The notes beneath the pieces were generated by a model. The model was not told the origin of the DNA and ran no database searches. It saw nothing but the letters and a program-made list of their open reading frames with translations. A program made the translations under genes and the position numbers. Of a stretch of DNA of 64,000 nt, positions 6,626 through 49,426 are shown one piece after another (the first letter of the stretch is position 1; every line of letters starts with the position of its first letter). Location: assembly GCF_963921235.1 (NCBI RefSeq), contig NC_086108.1, positions 54,004,001 to 54,068,000 on the forward strand. The letters run 5' to 3'. This DNA comes from Mobula hypostoma. Its lineage: Eukaryota.

Positions 6626-7149
6626 AGTTGCTTGTCCTATGCTAATTTGCAAGTGACTCATGTGAAAGTCAAGGAAAATGTGGGTCTGGAATGCACCTGC
6701 AATACAAATATTACATAGACAAACTAAGTTAGGACTAATGTCAGGAAGTTAACTACACATAGTTTTCAAGAATGAAAATGGAAACGGCACCCTTGGAATT
6801 ATATAAGAAACAGCTAGATGTTATTATGCAGGAAGTACATAGTACTTTTGGATGGATACAGTAACAGGTCAAATAAAATCTTTCTCATCTGTATACAGCT
6901 GGTGTTTTGCAAGGAATGGGCTTGGTTTGTGTTAACATCAACTCCTCACCCAGGGGTTTGTATCTAAATTCTAACTTCAACCTATTACTTTTTTTCCCTT
7001 CTCTAGATATGTTGTTGTTTATATTATAAATATTTAAATACATTTTAATATTTATTAAATAAAGTAAAAATTCAAATGCATTTAAAAAGATGTCCCACTT
7101 CCAACATCTTTGCTGAGAAGATTGACAATAAAATGGTAAATTTTCTGGC

Positions 7150-7690
7150 ATCGTAATTGGTAAAGCCCTCTCCTCCATTGTGCACATCTACATGAAGCAT
7201 TGCAGGAAGGCAGCATGCAACATCAGGGGTCCCCACCAGCCCGCCATGCTCTCTTCTTGCTGCTACCATCAGGAAGATGGTACAGGAATCTCAGGATTCA
7301 CACCAGCAGGTTCAGAAACAGTTACTACCCCTCAACCATCAGGCTCTTGAACCAGAGGGGATAAGTTCAATTTCACTTGCCCCATCATTGAAATGTTTCC
7401 TCAACCTATAGACTTACTTTCAAGGACTCTTCAACTCATGTTTTCAATATCCTTTGTTAACTTAATTATTTCTTTATTTTTGTATTTGTATAATTTGTTG
7501 TCTTTTCCACACTGGTTGAACAAAAGACAAATGGTCTCTCATTGATTCTATTATGGTTATTATTCTATTAAGGATTTAATAGAATAAATCCTTAATATTT
7601 ATTAAGGATTAGGCCTCCGAGAAAAGGAATCTCAGGGTTGTATATGGTGACATATATGTACTTCGATAATAAATTTACTTTGGACTTTGA
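7150..7690 (+). mobile_element. Rex1/Babar LINE 3' fragment
   Basis: Typical HP.HALFSLLPSGRRYR / RFRNSYYP coding remnant and an aataaatttactttggactttga tail. Confidence 0.75.
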
Positions 7691-9699
7691 ACCATCTCTC
7701 CGTTGTCCAGGAGCATATGCAAGGAAGATATTTTTCTTGCTTTTGAAGGATTAATCACTAGAAACTGTGTTGCTGTTGAAAAAATACCTGCTTAAAAGAA
7801 ATTTAGATAACTTAAAAGGTAAGAAGTAGAAAAATTCCTTGCAGTTGTGCTATGTGTCTTGCATGGCCGCTGGTTAGAATCTTTAAACTGACAAGAGTCC
7901 AAATGTTCTTGAGAAACCTGGAATTATGTAATTGAATTCACACTCTGGATTTATTAGTTTCTGGTCTAAACTTTGAAACCTCTCTTGAATTGAAGAGTTT
8001 TAAAATTCTAGTAGACTTTTTCAACAGGACCCAAAGCCAAGTGTGTCAAGGGTTATTGAGGTTCCTGCTAGATCACTGTAAACCTTGCCAGTACTACGAT
8101 TTTTTTTCTAATAAGCCTGATGATGTGTTGAGAGATGGAAGGATTTCTATATCCCTAGCTTCCATTTACTCCTGGCGATTGGTCTTGAGCTGTGATAAAA
8201 TTGTCTACACTTATAGCATCAACTTCGGGTCCCGGACAACTGCTCCCACCTGGGGCAAAGAAAGATGCGGGATTGAATAGTTGAGGATCAAGACCCAGGA
8301 ACGAATAGAGGTGGTTTACAAAACTGGGAAACAGCAATCACTAGGTCAAGCTCTCCGTTAAGGGGGAACATAAATTCAAAAGCCAGAGAGAGAGAGTCCG
8401 AATCGGAGATGGAAGGTGTAAACTAGTGGCGCCTGAACAGACGAAGATATAATTAACATTCAGCACCTGAAGCCAACCGAGCTTTACTAAACACATGGAA
8501 TAATTCGAGTTCCAAAATGCAAGAGTTCTCACCATCAAACTAGATCACAAATAGTTAAAGAAAATACGTACTACATTCAAAATTAATTAAAAGGGTATTT
8601 GAAAAATTCCTCCACAAAATATAGATTTAACTGTGCGAAAGTAATTTAAAAAATACAGAGCCTTTTTTTTAGAATAAAGATTCGATTATCTCGTACACTT
8701 TAAGGCTACCATTCGATTTTCTGAGGAGGAAAAGCTTGGTAAAAAAACATTCGATTGTAAACTGAAACCACAGACGAGAAAAGAAAAGCAAACCAGCAGG
8801 TTTCCAAGTCTGCCCAGGCAGGTAAGCTCCATGGGATAAGAGGGGATACTCGGTGTGCAGCAAACAAACATATTCAACATTTTGAAGAATATGTTGCAAT
8901 GTGCAATTTATCACACAAGCACACACTGTAAAAGTACTCTTTCTATTTAACACTTTGCTCAAAATTTTAACGATTTCTTAAATTCTCAATAGATTTTAAA
9001 TGTGATTCAGCATCTCCCTTCACCGATTTGGAAATAAAACATTCCCACAAAAAGTGGAGTGGATTATATTCTTTGAGTGGAATGGATTTGCAAATATCTT
9101 ATTACCTGAAATAAAGTACTGGAGTACATCACCAAGGAGAGGGTGACAGAACGACATAGAGGTTAGGTAATGGCATGTTTGTGTTTATAAACTTAGCAGA
9201 TTTTGGGAAGAACGAAGATTTAAAGGAGTAAAAAAAGTTATAGATCTGTAGAAAAGGGTGAATAAGAGTGGATAACAATGAGATTAGTTTTGATTTCAAT
9301 GCAGTGAGAAAAGAAAGAGGAAGAAGAACATGGAGGATGGTGCATCTGTAGTTTAAAAGAAAACAAGATGGGAACGTTTGGAGGAGAACTAAATATAAAG
9401 CTATTGCAAAAATAAAAGATAAGGTAGGTTGTGTCAGAACAGAGAGGTTTTGAATGCGAATCATTCCAAAGGAGACACATCTTTTTCTTGCATCTAGTGT
9501 AAAAGCCCTGGAGGAGTTGCAACAAATTCACTGCCCTTAAAAAAAGTGAAGGCAGTGTTCATGTTTGGTAGTTCATTGCGTTAATATTTAACGGGAATGA
9601 TTATTAAACATGTATCAAAAATGACAAAGTGCATTTCCTCCGCAACCATGTTTGGAGCTGATTGCATTTCGTCAGGGAGGTTGCCATGGTTATTTGCTT

Positions 9700-42150: not shown

Positions 42151-44724
42151 GTTCTCAAAACTGCAGGGTGAATCCTACCATTAGTGAAATAGTGGTTGAG
42201 GATTGTGTGGCATTCTCTGAAGTCTGGAGCCAATTCCAACAGAGTGATGGTTGGAAATATTACTTCATTCAGATGGTAGGTTAGAACTTCCATAAAGATT
42301 AGTTTTAAAGCTTAAGATGGATAGGGTTTGTGAACCAAGGTATTTTGGAATATAGAGCACAGACGGAATTTTGTAAAAGGGTTACAGATCGGCCTTGCTG
42401 ACTGGTTGAACACATTTGAGAACTAATTCTGTTCCTCGCCACTTCAGATATTAATACTGTATTGCAAAGCTCTTTTAGACCTGCAACAGAAGCTTTGTAT
42501 AATTTTTTTTTTGCAAATGCTTCACAAACCTGCACCATCTTGAGCCATCATGTCAGATCAGAACACCACCACTTGCAAGTAGCCTTTAGGTCACATGGTG
42601 TCCTTGCTTAGAAACATAATGTTCTTTCATTATTGCTAGCTTAAAATCCTGGAACACTCAATGCAGCAGGATCTTTACTCTGAGGGCTCTCAAGAGTTCA
42701 AGAAAATTATTTACAGTTGGGCATTAAGTGCATGCATGCCTTGGCAGTGACGGCGTTATGTGTGTGAGTGAAGAAGAAAACAGAGCCAACTGCAAATGGT
42801 CATGACTGTCTGCGAGGCCATAAACCACGAGCAACCATTTGTAGAAGGGAGAAATCTGAAGGTAAAAAGAAATTAAGAAAGAACACTTGCCCCCATTACT
42901 CATTTGGGTGATTTTGCTTCAAAAGGTTGTGGGAAGGTATTGCCAGCGATAACCGTGGAATCTCATTCGCGTCATAGAAATAGTTGAGCGCATAACCAGC
43001 ATCAATGAGCAACTTCACATGAGTGATACATGTCTTGTGTTTGCTGTGTTGTTTCTCTTGGTAGATCTTCCCTGATTTAGGGAATCCATCTCTACCAATA
43101 GAGTGAACACTGCATCCGTTACTCAGACATGGATATGCTGTTTCACACAGTTACGAAAATGGCATTATTGATCAGTTGTATGTGGTCCGTAACTTGCAGT
43201 TCAGTTGATTAAATTCTGTTGATTAAAACAAAAACCCATATTTTTAAATTAGCTTTCATTTCCTACATCCCATTTCTATTACAGTGGCAGATTGCACTGT
43301 AGTTACAGAGCTTGATATAGTTTTTGTGTCAAAATAACTGCTGCATAACTTCTATCACTGAACACCTTCATGCATTTGCTATGTGCAGTAAATCGGTGCT
43401 AGCAATTTTAAACCTGATGAGCACAATTGTTGATAAAGTTCCAGTGGCCTGAAGCAAATGGGGGGTGGGGGGGTCCTATTGAGATCAATATTATTCTGAA
43501 ATTTGGAAGACGAATATGCTTTTTGAAGAACTATGAAGTAAAATGATGGAACCAGCGGAAGCAAGGGAACATGCCGGAATTTGTAGATTCCAGCATTCCT
43601 AGAAATACTATATGGTTCAAATTGCTTCTGTACTTTTTGGCTTCATACCAATCTCGGTCTTGCTAGGACCAGTAAGAAGCACATTCTGTCAGTGCTGGAT
43701 TCCGCAAAAGTTTGCATGGGTCAGGTGACTTGAGTTGAAGCTATATGAATTTTGGTCCCTTTGGATTATTGTGGAAATTATGCTTAAAAGATCCTATAAA
43801 ATACGAATTGCATCCTCTCATGATCCATGTGAGTTCCAAATATCTCTGGTGATTACAGCTGGTTATTTATGATTGCATTATAATTGTCTTCTTAATACTG
43901 GCCTATTCTATGAAATGTAATTAATATCTGGACAGTGAAGAAAAAAACCAGATGGAACCTGCTGTGCACTTAATGTTTCAGTAATATTTGAGTAACCTTG
44001 TGCGCACGTGTGTATGTATGTGTTTATGTATACATACGTATATAATGTTTGATTAAGCGTTCTTGTTTAAATAATTCATTACAGGTTGTATGCAAAAATA
44101 CGTGAATTTCATATGTCATCACACTACCATGTGAAAGTGCGCGCCCTGCTTCAGCAGAAAGTTATACCTGCATTCCTGGATTCCCGTGTCTTCCTTTTGA
44201 ATTAGCTTAATGTTTTGAAGTTGCAAAACAGAACAGTGCTGACGTGGTATTTCTAAAATGAACCCAGGACGGCTATCGCTCTGTTGAAGCTCAGAGAGAC
44301 ATTAAAACGCAGCGAGGAATGGCGAATAAAAGATTGCAGCCCAGCACCTGCAGAGACTGTCGAGTTAAAATAAAGGCAGAAAATGTAAAAATTCATGGGT
44401 TCATAAAGAGCAAGTACCGGGTGATAATAATCCTTTTTTTAAAAAAAGAACAGAAATGGCTGGCTATATCAGAAAGATTAACACGTTTGATTGCTCAGTG
44501 GGTAACTGGCCCATGCATACTGAGCTAAATCAACAGTATTTTGAAGCAACTGAAATAGCCAATGAGAAACAAGTACCAATTTTGCTGCGTGGATTGGGTT
44601 TAAAGGTGTTTAATTGCCCCAGCCAAATTCCCAGAAATGACCTTCACTGATATTGTGAAAGTAATGCAGGACATTTAGAACCAAAGCCATTGTTGACTAC
44701 AGAACACTTTAGGTTTATAAGCGT

Positions 44725-45218
44725 AACCTACCAATCTGTTGTTGCCAGTACAATCTTCTATGCAGTGGTGCGCTGGGGCAATTAACACAGGTGATGCCAA
44801 CAGGCTCAATAAACTGATAAAAAGGCTGGCTGTGTTACAGGAGTCAAACTGGACACACTGGAGGCTGTGGTAGTACAAAGGTCCCTACGGAAAATCCTGG
44901 TAATTCTGAACAATGTTTCTTGCCCTCTGCATGCCACCTTGGCTGAACAGAGGAGCACCTTAGACAACTGCACTTAGACTAAGACAACTGCACTGGTCTA
45001 AAGTCCGTTACGAGGTCATTCTTGCCCTCAGCCATAAGGCTCTATAATGAGTCAACCTATAGCCAGGGAAGTGATAAACCCCTCCTGTTAGATTGCTTGA
45101 GGTAACTTATTTTTTTAATTATTCTTTGTACTTCTCTAATATTGTATATCTGTGAACTTGTAATGATACTGTGACACTAATCTCCTTTGGGATCAATAAA
45201 GTATCTATCCATCTATCT
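44725..45218 (+). mobile_element. Rex1/Babar-type LINE 3' fragment nested in Gypsy gag
   Basis: YQSVVASTIFYAVV.WG..RLNKLIK; caataaagta followed by a (tcta)n tail. Confidence 0.8.
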
Positions 45219-46005
45219 AAATTGCTTAATCAGTGGAAACTGTAGACACAGATGTAATTGAGTTGCAGTCAGGAATTAAAGTGAACATGAACAAAATTGC
45301 AGTGTCTAAACAGAAACCAACCTGGCCAGACAAATTGTGTTACCATTGTGGCAGGGGCACATATTCATCAAACAAATGCAGATTTAAAGGTGAAACTTGC
45401 AGAAAATGCAGCAGAGTAGGATACATACAAAGAGCATGTTGGGCAGACAAAAATAAATGGACAAGAGAAAAAGCTGAAAAGTCAAGTTGCAGTTTCAAAA
45501 AGAGCACTAATCTGCATGCTGTTGATGGAAAAATTTGATAATTATGAGAGTGACACAGGACTGCGTAGCCTTGAGATTTAGAGGGTGAAAATTAACAATA
45601 AACAAGCAATATTTAAATTTAATTCAACACTGGTTCAGCTGTTTCATTCATTCAACAAAATTAGTTTGAATGGCATTTCAAAGATACTAAACTGAAGCCT
45701 GTAGATATCCAGCTAAGCACTTATATTGGAGAAAAGATAACTCCTATAGGAATGACATTCGTGACAGTGAAATACAATAACCAACAAGTCACATTGAGCT
45801 GGTATGTGGTAAAAACAGGAGGACCAGCATGGTGGGAATGTAGTTGTTTCAGCCATTCACAACTTGATTGGCGACCCGGCCACCATTTACATGCCACATC
45901 CCTTACAAAAAGGTCACCTGAAAGAAAATTAAGAAAGGTACTGGAAGATGGCACAAATGTCTGTGCTGAACCCCATGAACCATTGCCCAACAGAGGACAA
46001 AACAG

Positions 46006-46565
46006 ATGCTGGTGCCAACTTCTGTGCCTCTGGTTGGAAAGCATATTGGACCAAGGAAGGACCATGCTGCTTAGAAGAATCATGAAGTTGTTGAAAGCAG
46101 TGGTCCAACTCCCAACAGTTTTAGTAGGCAACATTTCTGAGAAAGCTACTGATAGGTTAATCAGGCAGTCACTTGCACAATATGGCTTGGTTTTAAGCTG
46201 GGAGAGAGCTCAAGGAGCTTCAGGAAAGTTGCAAGCATTTAGCTTTTGTGAGTATAAAGATCCAGAATCTACTCTGCTTGCATTAAGGTTATTGCATGAA
46301 CTTCAAGTGGGAGACAAAAAGCTGCTTGTAAAAGTAGATGCAAAGTCCAAAGCCCAGCTGATGAATGGGAGGCCAAAAAGAAAGAAATCAATGGAGATAG
46401 GGAAACAGAGGATTCATCGGATGATTGTTGTGGATGAGGAAACCAAGAGGAGAGATCAAATTTTATACAAAGGGAGCAACAGAAGGATTAATAAGAGAAT
46501 CCTCTGGTGAACTGAATGGACCATCCCAAGATCAAGGCACACAAACTAGGAAAAAATAAGGAGAA
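46006..46565 (+). pseudogene. RBM25: Processed (intronless) partial pseudogene of RNA-binding protein 25, including the RRM
   Basis: MLVPTSVPLVGKHIGPRKDH, TVLVGNISEKATDRLIRQ..LVLSWERAQGASGKLQAFSFCEYKDPESTL.ALRLLHELQVGDKKLLVKVDAKSKAQL, DEWEAKKK, DEETKRRDQ and LIRESSGELNGPSQ match recalled RBM25 in order. TAG at 46072-46074 and several frameshifts. Confidence 0.92.
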
Positions 46566-49426
46566 TTCCTTTGAATTAGTTTAATGTTCTGAAGTTAGAA
46601 AATTAACAGGACCCTCCACTAAATTTCGAGAGATAGGCACTGTTTGGTTGCCCTGGATTTTTGATGGGGAGAAGTGGGGAGGGAGAAAATCAGCATCCAC
46701 TTTTTGAAGCAGCACTGTTGTCTTTGCAGCACGCACTTCAAGCAGTTATTGCTGCTGTTCACACTTAACAAAACAGTTGTGCAAGTATTTTTTTCAAAAA
46801 AAAAAGGACAAGCCATTCCAAACTCATCTGGGGAACAGGACTTTTCGTTAGAGCCGAGAAGTGAGGCAAACTGAGCTGTGTGCCCCTTGTTATTTGCACA
46901 TTGTTAAATATATTTGCTCTAAAACTGCCATGTGGAATCTCTTGCTACCCTCTCCCCCATAAATTTCCTGCCTTGCTGCAGTTTCCCCAGGATTATTTTG
47001 AAAGGTAAAATGTTAGTGGTTATGGTGTCCCTGTATGATTTTTTTTTTGGCATGAGTCTACTTTGGGGTGGGATACTATTTCCAGAGTGCATTGAAATTT
47101 TTGTACAAGAAAAACAAGTGGATTCTACTTGTTGCTCGTTTGTAGTTGGAGGTTTCAAGTTTAATTATCATTCAGCCATGCATGAATATAGCCAAACAAA
47201 ACAGTATTCCTCCGGAGCTAAGGTGCAAAGCTAATTACCAACACCACGCAGCATCTAGTACAAATAGCAGATATGGTTACAATTTCAGAAAAAGATACAC
47301 TCATAAAGAGAAAAAATATATAGCCCAAGTCCCTGAGTTGTCCTTGGGGTCCAGCTTGGTCTTCCACTGACCGGACACCAGAGGGCAGCACTGGTGGGAA
47401 TGTCCAGCCCTCAACCCAGTACAAATTCAATGGCTCACGGCTAACTCCAGCATCTTTGTTGCTAGCAACCGCAACAGGCAACTCAAGGCATGAGGGCCTT
47501 GTCCATGGAACAACCAAGACAATACAGCTCCCCCGCCATCGGGAAATTTGTGGTATTCAGGTGCCAAATTAAATTTGCATTTAATGCAACCGCTCCCCTT
47601 TAACACATGACATGCTCCCTGCAAAGAATTGGTTTCTATACTTGCTTTGAAGTCTTTAAGTTTTATTTGTACTTTTTTTAAAAAAAAAGTTTGGCCATTG
47701 CTTACAGAGTTTTGGCTATCCATTATACTAATGAAATTTTTCTTTGGGTCCTATCAACATTGATTTTTTTTAGTTGTGTTTCTTGACCATATAATGTGGT
47801 CCACAATAATGAACTCTTACGTTTTTGTGTTTAATATTCGGTGCTTTTTCACTCTTTCAACGAGATCTCTGGTTTTTTTGTTTAGTAGCTGTGGGAAGGT
47901 GAATCTCAGGGTTGTATACTGCATAAATACTTTGAAAATAAATATACTTTGAATTTTGAATCTTTGAATTCAGCAATTTATAGTTCTGTAAGTTAATGAA
48001 CTCAATGCGGAGCCTCAACAACCTTTGGGGTGGAGAGCTCCAAAGGACAGCTTCCCTCTGAATAAAGAAGTTTCTCCTCGTCTCAGTCCTAAGTACATCT
48101 CTTATTCCAGACTCCTGAGCCGGGGGAGAATTCATCCTGCATTCTGCTTTGAATCCCCATGAGAATTGTGTATGTTTTAATAAGGTCTCTTCAGGAAAAT
48201 ACAAGTCCAGTTCAAACAAATGAGATTTTTCACCTGCGATCCAGTTTCATTTTTTCTGATACCTGCAGTGACCCTTCGTGACTTGGATTCTTTTCAGGAT
48301 CTCGGTTAGGTAGATGTTCGGCATTTGTGAACTTGAGCAGACGAGAGAGGCATCACATATAAACCGAGGTTTATTAACAATCATTGCAGATAATATGGAT
48401 TTTTATCAAGTTATCAGATGGTGGTCAGTATAAAAGCCTGTGTTGGTTTTCCTTTTCTCCTCCAGCCCATGGCAATTGGCTTGTTTGTGGCCTTGGATGA
48501 TGGCAAATGGTAAGATTTAAAGATTGGAAAAGGAGTCTTAAACTGAACAGAAAATAGACATTTGAATCTTAGCTGTTTTTGTTGACAATAGTATGTCAAT
48601 AGCTCAACAATTGGATTTTCAATTTTCACACCAGTTATCTTTCTTCTGTTTTCACATCAGACTTGCTGAACTGAAAATACTTTTCTCATTGCTTATCCAC
48701 CTCTCCTCTCAACATTGTAAGTGAGATGACCAAGAATTTGGCGTGTGACCTGTAAGTCAGAGAAATTTTCATCCCATTGACACAGAGGTTTAAATACAAT
48801 TTTTGTTTTTTGAAACTTCACTTTGTCTTTACCCAACTTGTTTGAAACTCGTAGGAAGCTCATTCTTTTGTTGAACAAAGAACACTAAGTCCAAAAGTAA
48901 AAGCCTGCAGTTTGTGGCCTGGAAAAGGCAGAAAGGATGTTGCATGCAAAGTCTGACTTTGATCATTCCTGAAATGGTCACGTGCCGCAGTGAGCATTTT
49001 AAAAGCTGTGCTTCATTAGTTTTTGCCTTCCAGCTGAATCCTTCCCCATTAAACAGAATAATTTACCACAGCAAGAGGTCTTTTATATAATCCCCAGAGA
49101 GTGGAACCATAAAGGGGTAGAGTGAAAAAGATGTAGGAGATGCTTGTAACCTATAGGGGTCTTGTAGATTGGACACTAACTTGAGACCTTGCTAAGACAT
49201 ATCTGAAACACTATTGAAAACCCATTTATAGCAGACAAGCTGAATGATCCTTGCTGTTGACTAACCACTGCACACAAGGGATGGGTTGCACATACCCATA
49301 CCAAAGGGACGGGTTAGACCTGAACCTGAGGGGGTTCAATATCCTTGCAGGCAGGTTGACTAGATTTGTTCGGGTGGGTTTAAACTAATTTGGCAGGGGG
49401 TTGGGAGCTGGAGTGATAGTGCTGAA

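What the first reader, a model, noticed from the sequence alone, without database searches (positions are those of the whole stretch)
43960..46613. Gypsy LTR element that has captured a spliced RBM25 mRNA segment
Seen: a TG..CA 5' LTR (43960-44235), a PBS-like site, and gag and protease remnants. Near 45950-46005 the sequence switches into about 560 nt of RBM25 coding sequence. At 46566 it switches back into the last 43 nt of the same LTR (ttcctttgaattagtttaatgttctgaagttagaaaattaaca vs 44191-44235). The whole unit is flanked by gaacc/ggacc. The RBM25 part has no poly(A) tail or TSD of its own, so it does not look like a standard LINE-made retrocopy. Known: RBM25 is multi-exon over this span, and template switching during LTR reverse transcription can capture cellular mRNA. 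Inference: either LTR-mediated mRNA capture, or a cDNA-patched deletion of an integrated element. The host segment replaces pol, the PPT and most of the 3' LTR, and it ends in a purine run (aggaaaaaataaggaga) just before the LTR remnant, where a PPT would sit.
Basis: partly seen in the sequence, partly recalled or inferred. Interest (0 to 1): 0.8.

Follow-up and report, generated by a model that had tools for sequence, protein, structure and literature searches.

The report
Retrotransposon family carrying spliced RBM25 mRNA
This is one decayed copy of a jumping-gene family in a cartilaginous fish whose copying enzymes are replaced by an intron-free piece of the host splicing gene RBM25, likely picked up once by a known copying slip and then spread to more than a thousand places in the genome.

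Summary
Window 45949-46565 matches six exons of the genome's RBM25 gene with five introns (18.6 kb) missing. It sits inside a Gypsy element: LTR, tRNA-Ser primer site, gag, protease, 5-bp target duplication. It belongs to a large family: the same 5' junction occurs 1,074 times (control 0), which extrapolates to about 2,400 copies, beside 2,363 matches to the uncaptured pol-type site. The original capture took about 1,070 nt (nine exons, including a 48-nt exon seen only in cartilaginous fish) in place of RT-RNaseH-integrase. It has 7-nt and 9-nt microhomologies at its ends and is in frame with gag-protease. Complete copies keep a normal PPT and 3' LTR. The join at 46565/46566 is a later deletion of about 500-570 nt unique to this locus, and a LINE fragment sits in gag. 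The family is old (LTR-LTR K about 0.22) and decayed neutrally (pN/pS about 1; 0 of 96 copies intact). The mechanism is known (Tan et al. 2016); the scale is unusual. This scan already noted the family at many other loci.

The parts
43955..43959 (+). left target-site duplication (GAACC)
   Evidence: 5-bp TSD fits the family: flank identity 0.51 vs 0.25 null in the 15 of 78 copies with both LTRs
43960..44235 (+). 5' LTR, 276 nt, TG..CA
44237..44247 (+). decayed primer-binding site, 8 of 11 bases complementary to the 3' end (with CCA) of tRNA-Ser(GCT)
   Evidence: PBS of other copies compared by eye with genomic tRNA-Ser(GCT) genes
44456..44722 (+). gag 5' part, broken
   Evidence: tblastn of P0122 aa 1-93, 42%
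44723..45218 (+). nested 5'-truncated LINE-like 3' fragment ending in a TATC-type tail; about 190-200 nt of gag are missing at this site
   Evidence: absent from all other element copies aligned; summed depth up to 99,000 and loose ends at 44728 and 45219; gag aa 94-155 missing; LINE label rests on recalled motifs, Pfam gave no hit
45219..45948 (+). gag 3' part with two Cys-His knuckles, aspartic protease remnant and PR-RT linker, broken
   Evidence: P0122 aa 156-419, 38%; protease domain at P0122 aa 297-383
45949..45955 (+). 5' capture junction: 7-nt microhomology TGCCACA (one change in this copy) shared by the Gypsy linker and the end of RBM25 coding exon 2; in frame
45949..46565 (+). captured spliced RBM25 cDNA: exon 2 tail 45949-45958, 48-nt exon 45959-46005, exons 46006-46177, 46178-46235, 46236-46395 (RRM), 46396-about 46542, then a short piece of a later Glu/Arg-rich exon at about 46543-46561; six indels, no intact frame
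   Evidence: RRM_1 E=2e-7; 11.9% divergent from the parent gene
46565..46566 (+). locus-specific deletion of about 500-570 nt (pol tail, PPT, first ~230 nt of the 3' LTR)
   Evidence: a contig of organism C bridges it (record 32)
46566..46608 (+). last 43 nt of the 3' LTR
46609..46613 (+). right target-site duplication (GGACC)

Best explanation
This locus is a dead copy of a non-autonomous Gypsy LTR family that carries a spliced RBM25 cDNA in place of RT-RNaseH-integrase, likely made once by two microhomology-guided template switches onto co-packaged host mRNA and likely spread in trans by its pol-bearing parent family. Shown: intron loss, both junctions shared across the family, both microhomologies, LTRs, primer site, PPT, 5-bp TSDs, a coexisting pol-bearing family of similar divergence, later internal deletions in the purine-rich part of the cargo, and neutral decay. 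Inferred: (1) reverse transcriptase left the element RNA at the 9-nt match in the pol tail, copied about 1,070 nt of RBM25 mRNA, and returned at the 7-nt match in the PR-RT linker; (2) the chimera kept all cis signals and used helper enzymes; (3) this copy lost its PPT and most of its 3' LTR, and gained the LINE piece, after integration. A full 5' LTR needs a full U3 on the template, so the 3' LTR must have been complete at insertion.
For: Parent gene on C1 has introns of 1.1-6.1 kb at every exon join present in the copies. All 150 of 150 scored RRM hits are uninterrupted. The 5' junction 22-mer gives 1,074 matches, control 0; 35 of 78 fetched copies meet that pattern, giving about 2,400, in line with 2,877 and 3,075 candidates. 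59 of 78 copies start at mRNA nt 144-151 and 17 of 78 end at nt 1215-1221. Microhomology null: P(>=7) 7e-4, P(>=9) 6e-5. The pol-type site gives 2,363 matches; 9 of 12 such loci carry RT and 0 of 12 carry RBM25. 0 of 30 integrase loci carry RBM25, and 0 of 78 chimeric loci carry an RT/RH/IN-core match. One of 38 chimeric loci (L013) rejoins the element earlier, inside the integrase C-terminal region, as recombination with a co-packaged helper RNA would give.
Against: Template switching and helper mobilisation are inferred from end products, not observed. The 3' microhomology lies in low-complexity purine sequence and is exact in only 7 of the 18 alignable integrase loci. Only 15 of 78 copies gave both LTRs, and 7 of these match the TSD at 2 of 5 bases or fewer. 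The sample is biased to the best-preserved RRM copies, so the copy estimate is rough. One of 78 alignments starts at nt 134, upstream of the junction; it was not examined.
Confidence: 0.92

Rival explanations
1. The in-frame Gag-protease-RBM25(RRM) fusion, or the purine-rich RBM25 RNA itself, was useful to the element (packaging, export or splicing control), and this drove the amplification.
For: The 5' junction is in frame. No frameshift in the RRM part is shared by more than 5 of 96 copies. The chimera reached roughly half the count of its helper (1,074 vs 2,363 matches).
Against: Pooled pN/pS is 1.10 (transitions) and 1.02 (transversions). The only two linked subfamily variants are both non-synonymous. 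The commonest internal deletion (65-70 of 81 copies) shifts the frame of the downstream exon. The Glu/Arg-rich part was repeatedly lost; exon F survives in 8 of 74 copies. An in-frame join has a 1-in-3 prior. The tree is star-like, so power is low.
Confidence: 0.1
2. A LINE-made RBM25 processed pseudogene inserted into a Gypsy copy, a later deletion fused the two, and the hybrid was then amplified.
For: LINEs are abundant here (nested piece). DNA-level deletions can also leave microhomology.
Against: Both ends are internal to the coding sequence, with no poly(A), 3' UTR or TSD. It would need two independent deletions, each ending exactly on an element-mRNA microhomology.
Confidence: 0.05
3. 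One reading: a one-off cDNA-patched deletion of this integrated element, with the host purine run acting as a substitute PPT.
For: The sequence of this copy alone allows it.
Against: The 5' junction is shared by at least 1,074 loci. The 3' join is unique to this locus. Complete copies have a normal PPT. The 5' LTR here is full length.
Confidence: 0.01

Closest known systems
LTR-mediated retrocopies of animals (Tan et al. 2016, Genome Res, PMC5131818; passages and section 5 read)
   Same: Partial spliced mRNA replacing internal ORFs between two LTRs; microsimilarity at both switch points (median 6 bp there, 7 and 9 here); no poly(A) or TSD of its own; further spread as a non-autonomous element.
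   Different: In what I read, cases are single or few copies (18 insertion sites for nine fly retrocopies; 5 zebrafish, 4 chicken, 8 mouse, 3 human retrocopies). Here one capture made at least 1,074 and probably about 2,400 copies, with deletion subfamilies, and it is old and shared by several species.
Crocodilian ERV captures of KIT-ligand (CrocERV29) and nectin3 (CrocERV31) (Chong et al. 2014, PMC4299795; passages read)
   Same: Ancient host-mRNA capture by a vertebrate LTR element, then amplification; shared across species.
   Different: Those are retroviruses with 9 and 6 copies, near-complete ORFs under purifying selection, and pol retained. Here it is a Gypsy element, pol is lost, the cargo is partial and evolves neutrally.
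Maize Bs1, HERV-K/FAM8A1, and large retrotransposon derivatives (as cited in PMC5131818 and PMC6431247; passages read, originals not read)
   Same: Host sequence trapped between LTRs in place of coding sequence and moved in trans.
   Different: Different hosts and element classes. This family keeps gag-protease and fuses the cargo in frame.
K02A2.6-like Gypsy polyproteins of fish and molluscs (P0122, P0123, P0144)
   Same: Single gag-pol ORF in the order PR-RT-RH-IN, two Cys-His knuckles, same C-terminal motif.
   Different: All copies here are broken. The placement in the Mag lineage is recalled, not tested by a tree.

Membership tests
Ty3/Gypsy LTR retrotransposon | Two TG..CA LTRs with short TSD | tested here: met
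   15 of 78 copies with both LTRs; 5-bp flank identity 0.51 vs 0.25 null; this copy has a full 5' LTR and 43 nt of the 3' LTR
Ty3/Gypsy LTR retrotransposon | tRNA-complementary PBS and a PPT before the 3' LTR | tested here: met
   PBS matches tRNA-Ser(GCT); PPT in complete copies, deleted in this copy
Ty3/Gypsy LTR retrotransposon | Pol order PR-RT-RNaseH-IN, no env | tested here: met
   pol-bearing partners L087 and L088 align colinearly to P0122; no room for env before the PPT
Ty3/Gypsy LTR retrotransposon | RT phylogeny (lineage placement) | not tested
   only best hits to K02A2.6-like proteins
LTR-mediated retrocopy (Tan et al. 2016) | Intron loss relative to a multi-exon parent | tested here: met
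   5 introns in this copy, 8 in the longest copies
LTR-mediated retrocopy (Tan et al. 2016) | Host piece replaces element ORFs (discontinuous flanks) | tested here: met
   element left near P0122 aa 415 and rejoined after the integrase C-terminal motif near aa 1250
LTR-mediated retrocopy (Tan et al. 2016) | Microsimilarity at both switch points beyond chance | tested here: met
   7 nt and 9 nt; null 7e-4 and 6e-5
LTR-mediated retrocopy (Tan et al. 2016) | No poly(A) tail or own TSD | tested here: met
   both ends internal to the CDS
LTR-mediated retrocopy (Tan et al. 2016) | Transcription from the LTR | tested here: inconclusive
   only contigs of runs guessed to be RNA; no listed contig bridges a capture junction
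Functional (selected) gene capture, as in CrocERV29/31 or v-onc | Intact captured ORF under purifying selection | tested here: not met
   0 of 96 copies free of both stops and frameshifts; pN/pS 1.0-1.1
LINE-made processed pseudogene | 3' poly(A) and flanking TSD around the cDNA | tested here: not met

The most novel reading that the evidence does not exclude
The capture was adaptive for the element: an in-frame Gag-protease-RBM25 RRM fusion, or the purine-rich RBM25 RNA, gave a pol-less Gypsy element a packaging or RNA-processing advantage that let it rival its own helper. That would make it a retrotransposon counterpart of retroviral oncogene capture, built on a host splicing factor.
Probability: 0.1. 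Interest if true: 0.75.

Novelty: new member of a known kind. Interest (0 to 1): 0.45.

Why it matters
It is an unusually complete vertebrate record of LTR-mediated gene capture. The parent gene, helper family, both switch points and more than a thousand descendants are all readable in one genome. It shows that such a chimera can found a major repeat family rather than stay a one-off retrocopy. The copies preserve an old RBM25 splice form with a 48-nt exon seen here only in cartilaginous fish; as inherited insertions they imply a germline or early-embryo transcript. They give many neutral replicates for dating and presence/absence markers across related species. They will also confound RBM25 annotation and read mapping in these genomes. 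The mechanism itself is not new.

Tried and rejected
A PWI-domain search for the parent gene returned SRRM1- and PRPF3-like exons (labels recalled), not RBM25; the C-terminal protein search found it. Pfam scans of short broken gag, RT, integrase and LINE pieces gave nothing useful. Expression: no RNA holder on record was listed. Four runs guessed to be RNA cover the element in short contigs, but none listed bridges a capture junction, and the host mRNA maps to the same region, so nothing is concluded. Summed contig depth (2,800-35,000 over RBM25 vs 7-9 on flanks) fits high copy number in four organisms but is not a copy count. The 3' junction pattern gave 724 matches, control 1; pol-type copies differ from it by only 2-3 bases, so it may include some and was not used as a count. 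Polarity of one amino-acid difference (S/A at codon 245) is ambiguous: Ala in P0001, Ser in P0158. No absolute age was derived because no rate was tested. Literature searches pairing RBM25 with shark, elasmobranch or cartilaginous terms, or gene capture and retrocopies with chondrichthyan or batoid terms, returned 0 papers; broader listings showed nothing on this family. Repeat libraries (Repbase, Dfam), subscription papers and supplements were not seen and may already hold the family.
Full report
OBSERVATION. The window lies at G000:C50:54004001-54068000 in a 3.48-Gb genome. The closest protein relative of the cargo is from a shark, so the host is taken to be a cartilaginous fish. The LTR at 43960-44235, the 43-nt LTR tail at 46566-46608 (37 of 43 identical) and the GAACC/GGACC flanks are as described. 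An intact Gypsy polyprotein (P0122, domain order PR-RT-RH-IN) aligns to 44456-44716 and 45212-45961. Between these lies a foreign piece, 44723-45218, absent from all other copies aligned and of much higher copy number. It looks like a truncated LINE 3' end (label from recalled motifs), and about 190-200 nt of gag are missing there.

PARENT GENE. RBM25 lies on C1, minus strand. I fetched 200 kb and mapped the exons by splice sites. The window holds the last 10 nt of coding exon 2, a 48-nt exon and four further exons at 83-91% identity per exon (8 of 10 in the exon 2 tail), with introns of 5,805, 3,425, 1,738, 2,778 and 4,824 nt cleanly missing. The 48-nt exon has AG/GT ends. It is identical over 14 of 14 residues to Heptranchias P0001 and is joined to both neighbours in P0158. 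It occurs in only 1 of 114 RBM25 proteins long enough to show it (mostly bony vertebrates). The window copy has six indels in the cargo, so no fusion protein is encoded; the 281-codon open frame is a mosaic of frames.

FAMILY. The cargo DNA gave 2,877 candidates (40 scored, 82-85% identical) and the RRM protein 3,075 (150 of 150 scored uninterrupted). The 22-nt 5' junction occurs 1,074 times with up to two mismatches, control 0. Of 78 fetched copies (taken from the top 80 or so of the 150), 35 meet that pattern, giving about 2,400 copies; this is rough. The uncaptured version of the site occurs 2,363 times (two degenerate positions); 9 of 12 such loci carry RT and none carries RBM25. Integrase copies are 81-84% identical to their query, like the chimeric ones, so the two families are of similar age.

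JUNCTIONS. At the 5' end, element and host share TGCCACA, read as the same codons in both frames, so the cargo is fused in frame to gag-protease. 59 of 78 copies start at mRNA nt 144-151, 18 later, and one at 134. At the 3' end, 17 of 78 copies reach nt 1215-1221 in a ninth exon, where host and element share GAGAAGAAA. That motif is exact in 7 of 18 alignable integrase loci (11 of 30 gave no anchor, one was unrelated). Random switch points give 7 or more shared bases at 7e-4 and 9 or more at 6e-5. So one capture of about 1,070 nt (nine exons, about 28 kb of introns) replaced RT, RNase H and integrase; 0 of 78 chimeric loci match that core. Shorter forms arose by deletions in the purine-rich part: exon F survives in 8 of 74 copies, and the window's form, shared by 65-70 of 81, joins exon E to the start of exon G. 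L013 rejoins the element inside the integrase C-terminal region, which suggests recombination with a helper RNA.

THIS COPY'S 3' END. Complete copies continue for about 500-570 nt through the pol tail, a PPT and the first part of the 3' LTR before reaching the 43 nt kept here. The window's join gives 4 matches against 3 in the control, so it is unique. A full 5' LTR requires a full U3 at the RNA 3' end (established LTR replication), so the deletion is inferred to be post-integration. A contig of organism C bridges this join and the right flank, and one of organism B bridges the left flank and LTR (records 32 and 17). The insertion and the deletion therefore predate those splits.

AGE AND SELECTION. 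In the 15 of 78 copies with both LTRs, K2P distance is 0.16-0.31, median 0.22; a 5-bp TSD fits best (0.51 vs 0.25 null); median length is 2.8 kb. Over 603 nt, 96 distinct copies (of 108 given, with at least 450 nt aligned) differ from the parent by a median 12.6% and from each other by 16.4%. Majority differences from the parent outside CpG are 20 synonymous and 3 non-synonymous (two of these at the deletion join), as expected if the host gene went on under purifying selection. All other changes are neutral: pN/pS 1.10 and 1.02; 86 copies have frameshifts, 83 have stops, and none has neither. Only two alleles are significantly linked, both non-synonymous, so the tree is star-like and gives little power to see selection in replicating copies.

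MECHANISM AND COMPARISON. The anatomy matches the template-switch model of Tan et al. 2016 (PMC5131818; passages and section 5 read) in every feature I could test except transcription, which was inconclusive. The vertebrate cases I read have at most a few copies; crocodilian ERV captures have 6-9 copies and purifying selection (PMC4299795, passages). Host DNA between LTRs moved in trans is a recognised class (PMC6431247, passages). Five targeted searches found no paper on this family; repeat libraries and supplements were not seen. Earlier notes of this scan describe the same family at many other loci. My reading was fixed before I opened them, and they are not counted as support.

VERDICT. 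A real, well-resolved, high-copy example of a known mechanism. Interest 0.45.

Noticed in passing
L071:7586-7633 (G000:C1:99832586-99832633, minus): A 48-nt in-frame exon of RBM25 between coding exons 2 and 3, conserved with Heptranchias and found in only 1 of 114 RBM25 proteins checked; apparently specific to cartilaginous fish and preserved in the retrocopies.
   Followed up: partly
L013 / L104 (C67:49970140 region): A chimeric copy rejoins the element upstream of the usual site, inside the integrase C-terminal region; likely a recombinant with a pol-bearing RNA.
   Followed up: partly
L027 (C96:22422000-22425000): Tandem internal duplication of the protease-RBM25 junction region within one copy.
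   Followed up: no
L139 and L145 (C91:14.72 Mb and 12.59 Mb): Two copies differ by only 1%, which points to a recent segmental duplication or an assembly duplicate.
   Followed up: no
L088 (C76:7326000-7335999): The downstream LTR of a pol-bearing copy is followed by another PBS-like sequence, suggesting a tandem element sharing an LTR.
   Followed up: no
L076:1852-1890 and L079:1592-1628: LTR-tail matches of the same family lie 36-66 kb upstream of the parent RBM25 start codon.
   Followed up: no
window 44723-45218: Nested LINE-like fragment with about 190-200 nt of gag missing at the insertion site; family not identified by tool.
   Followed up: partly
window 47083-47200: Summed contig depth jumps to 7,000-9,600, showing another repeat just downstream of the element.
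   Followed up: no
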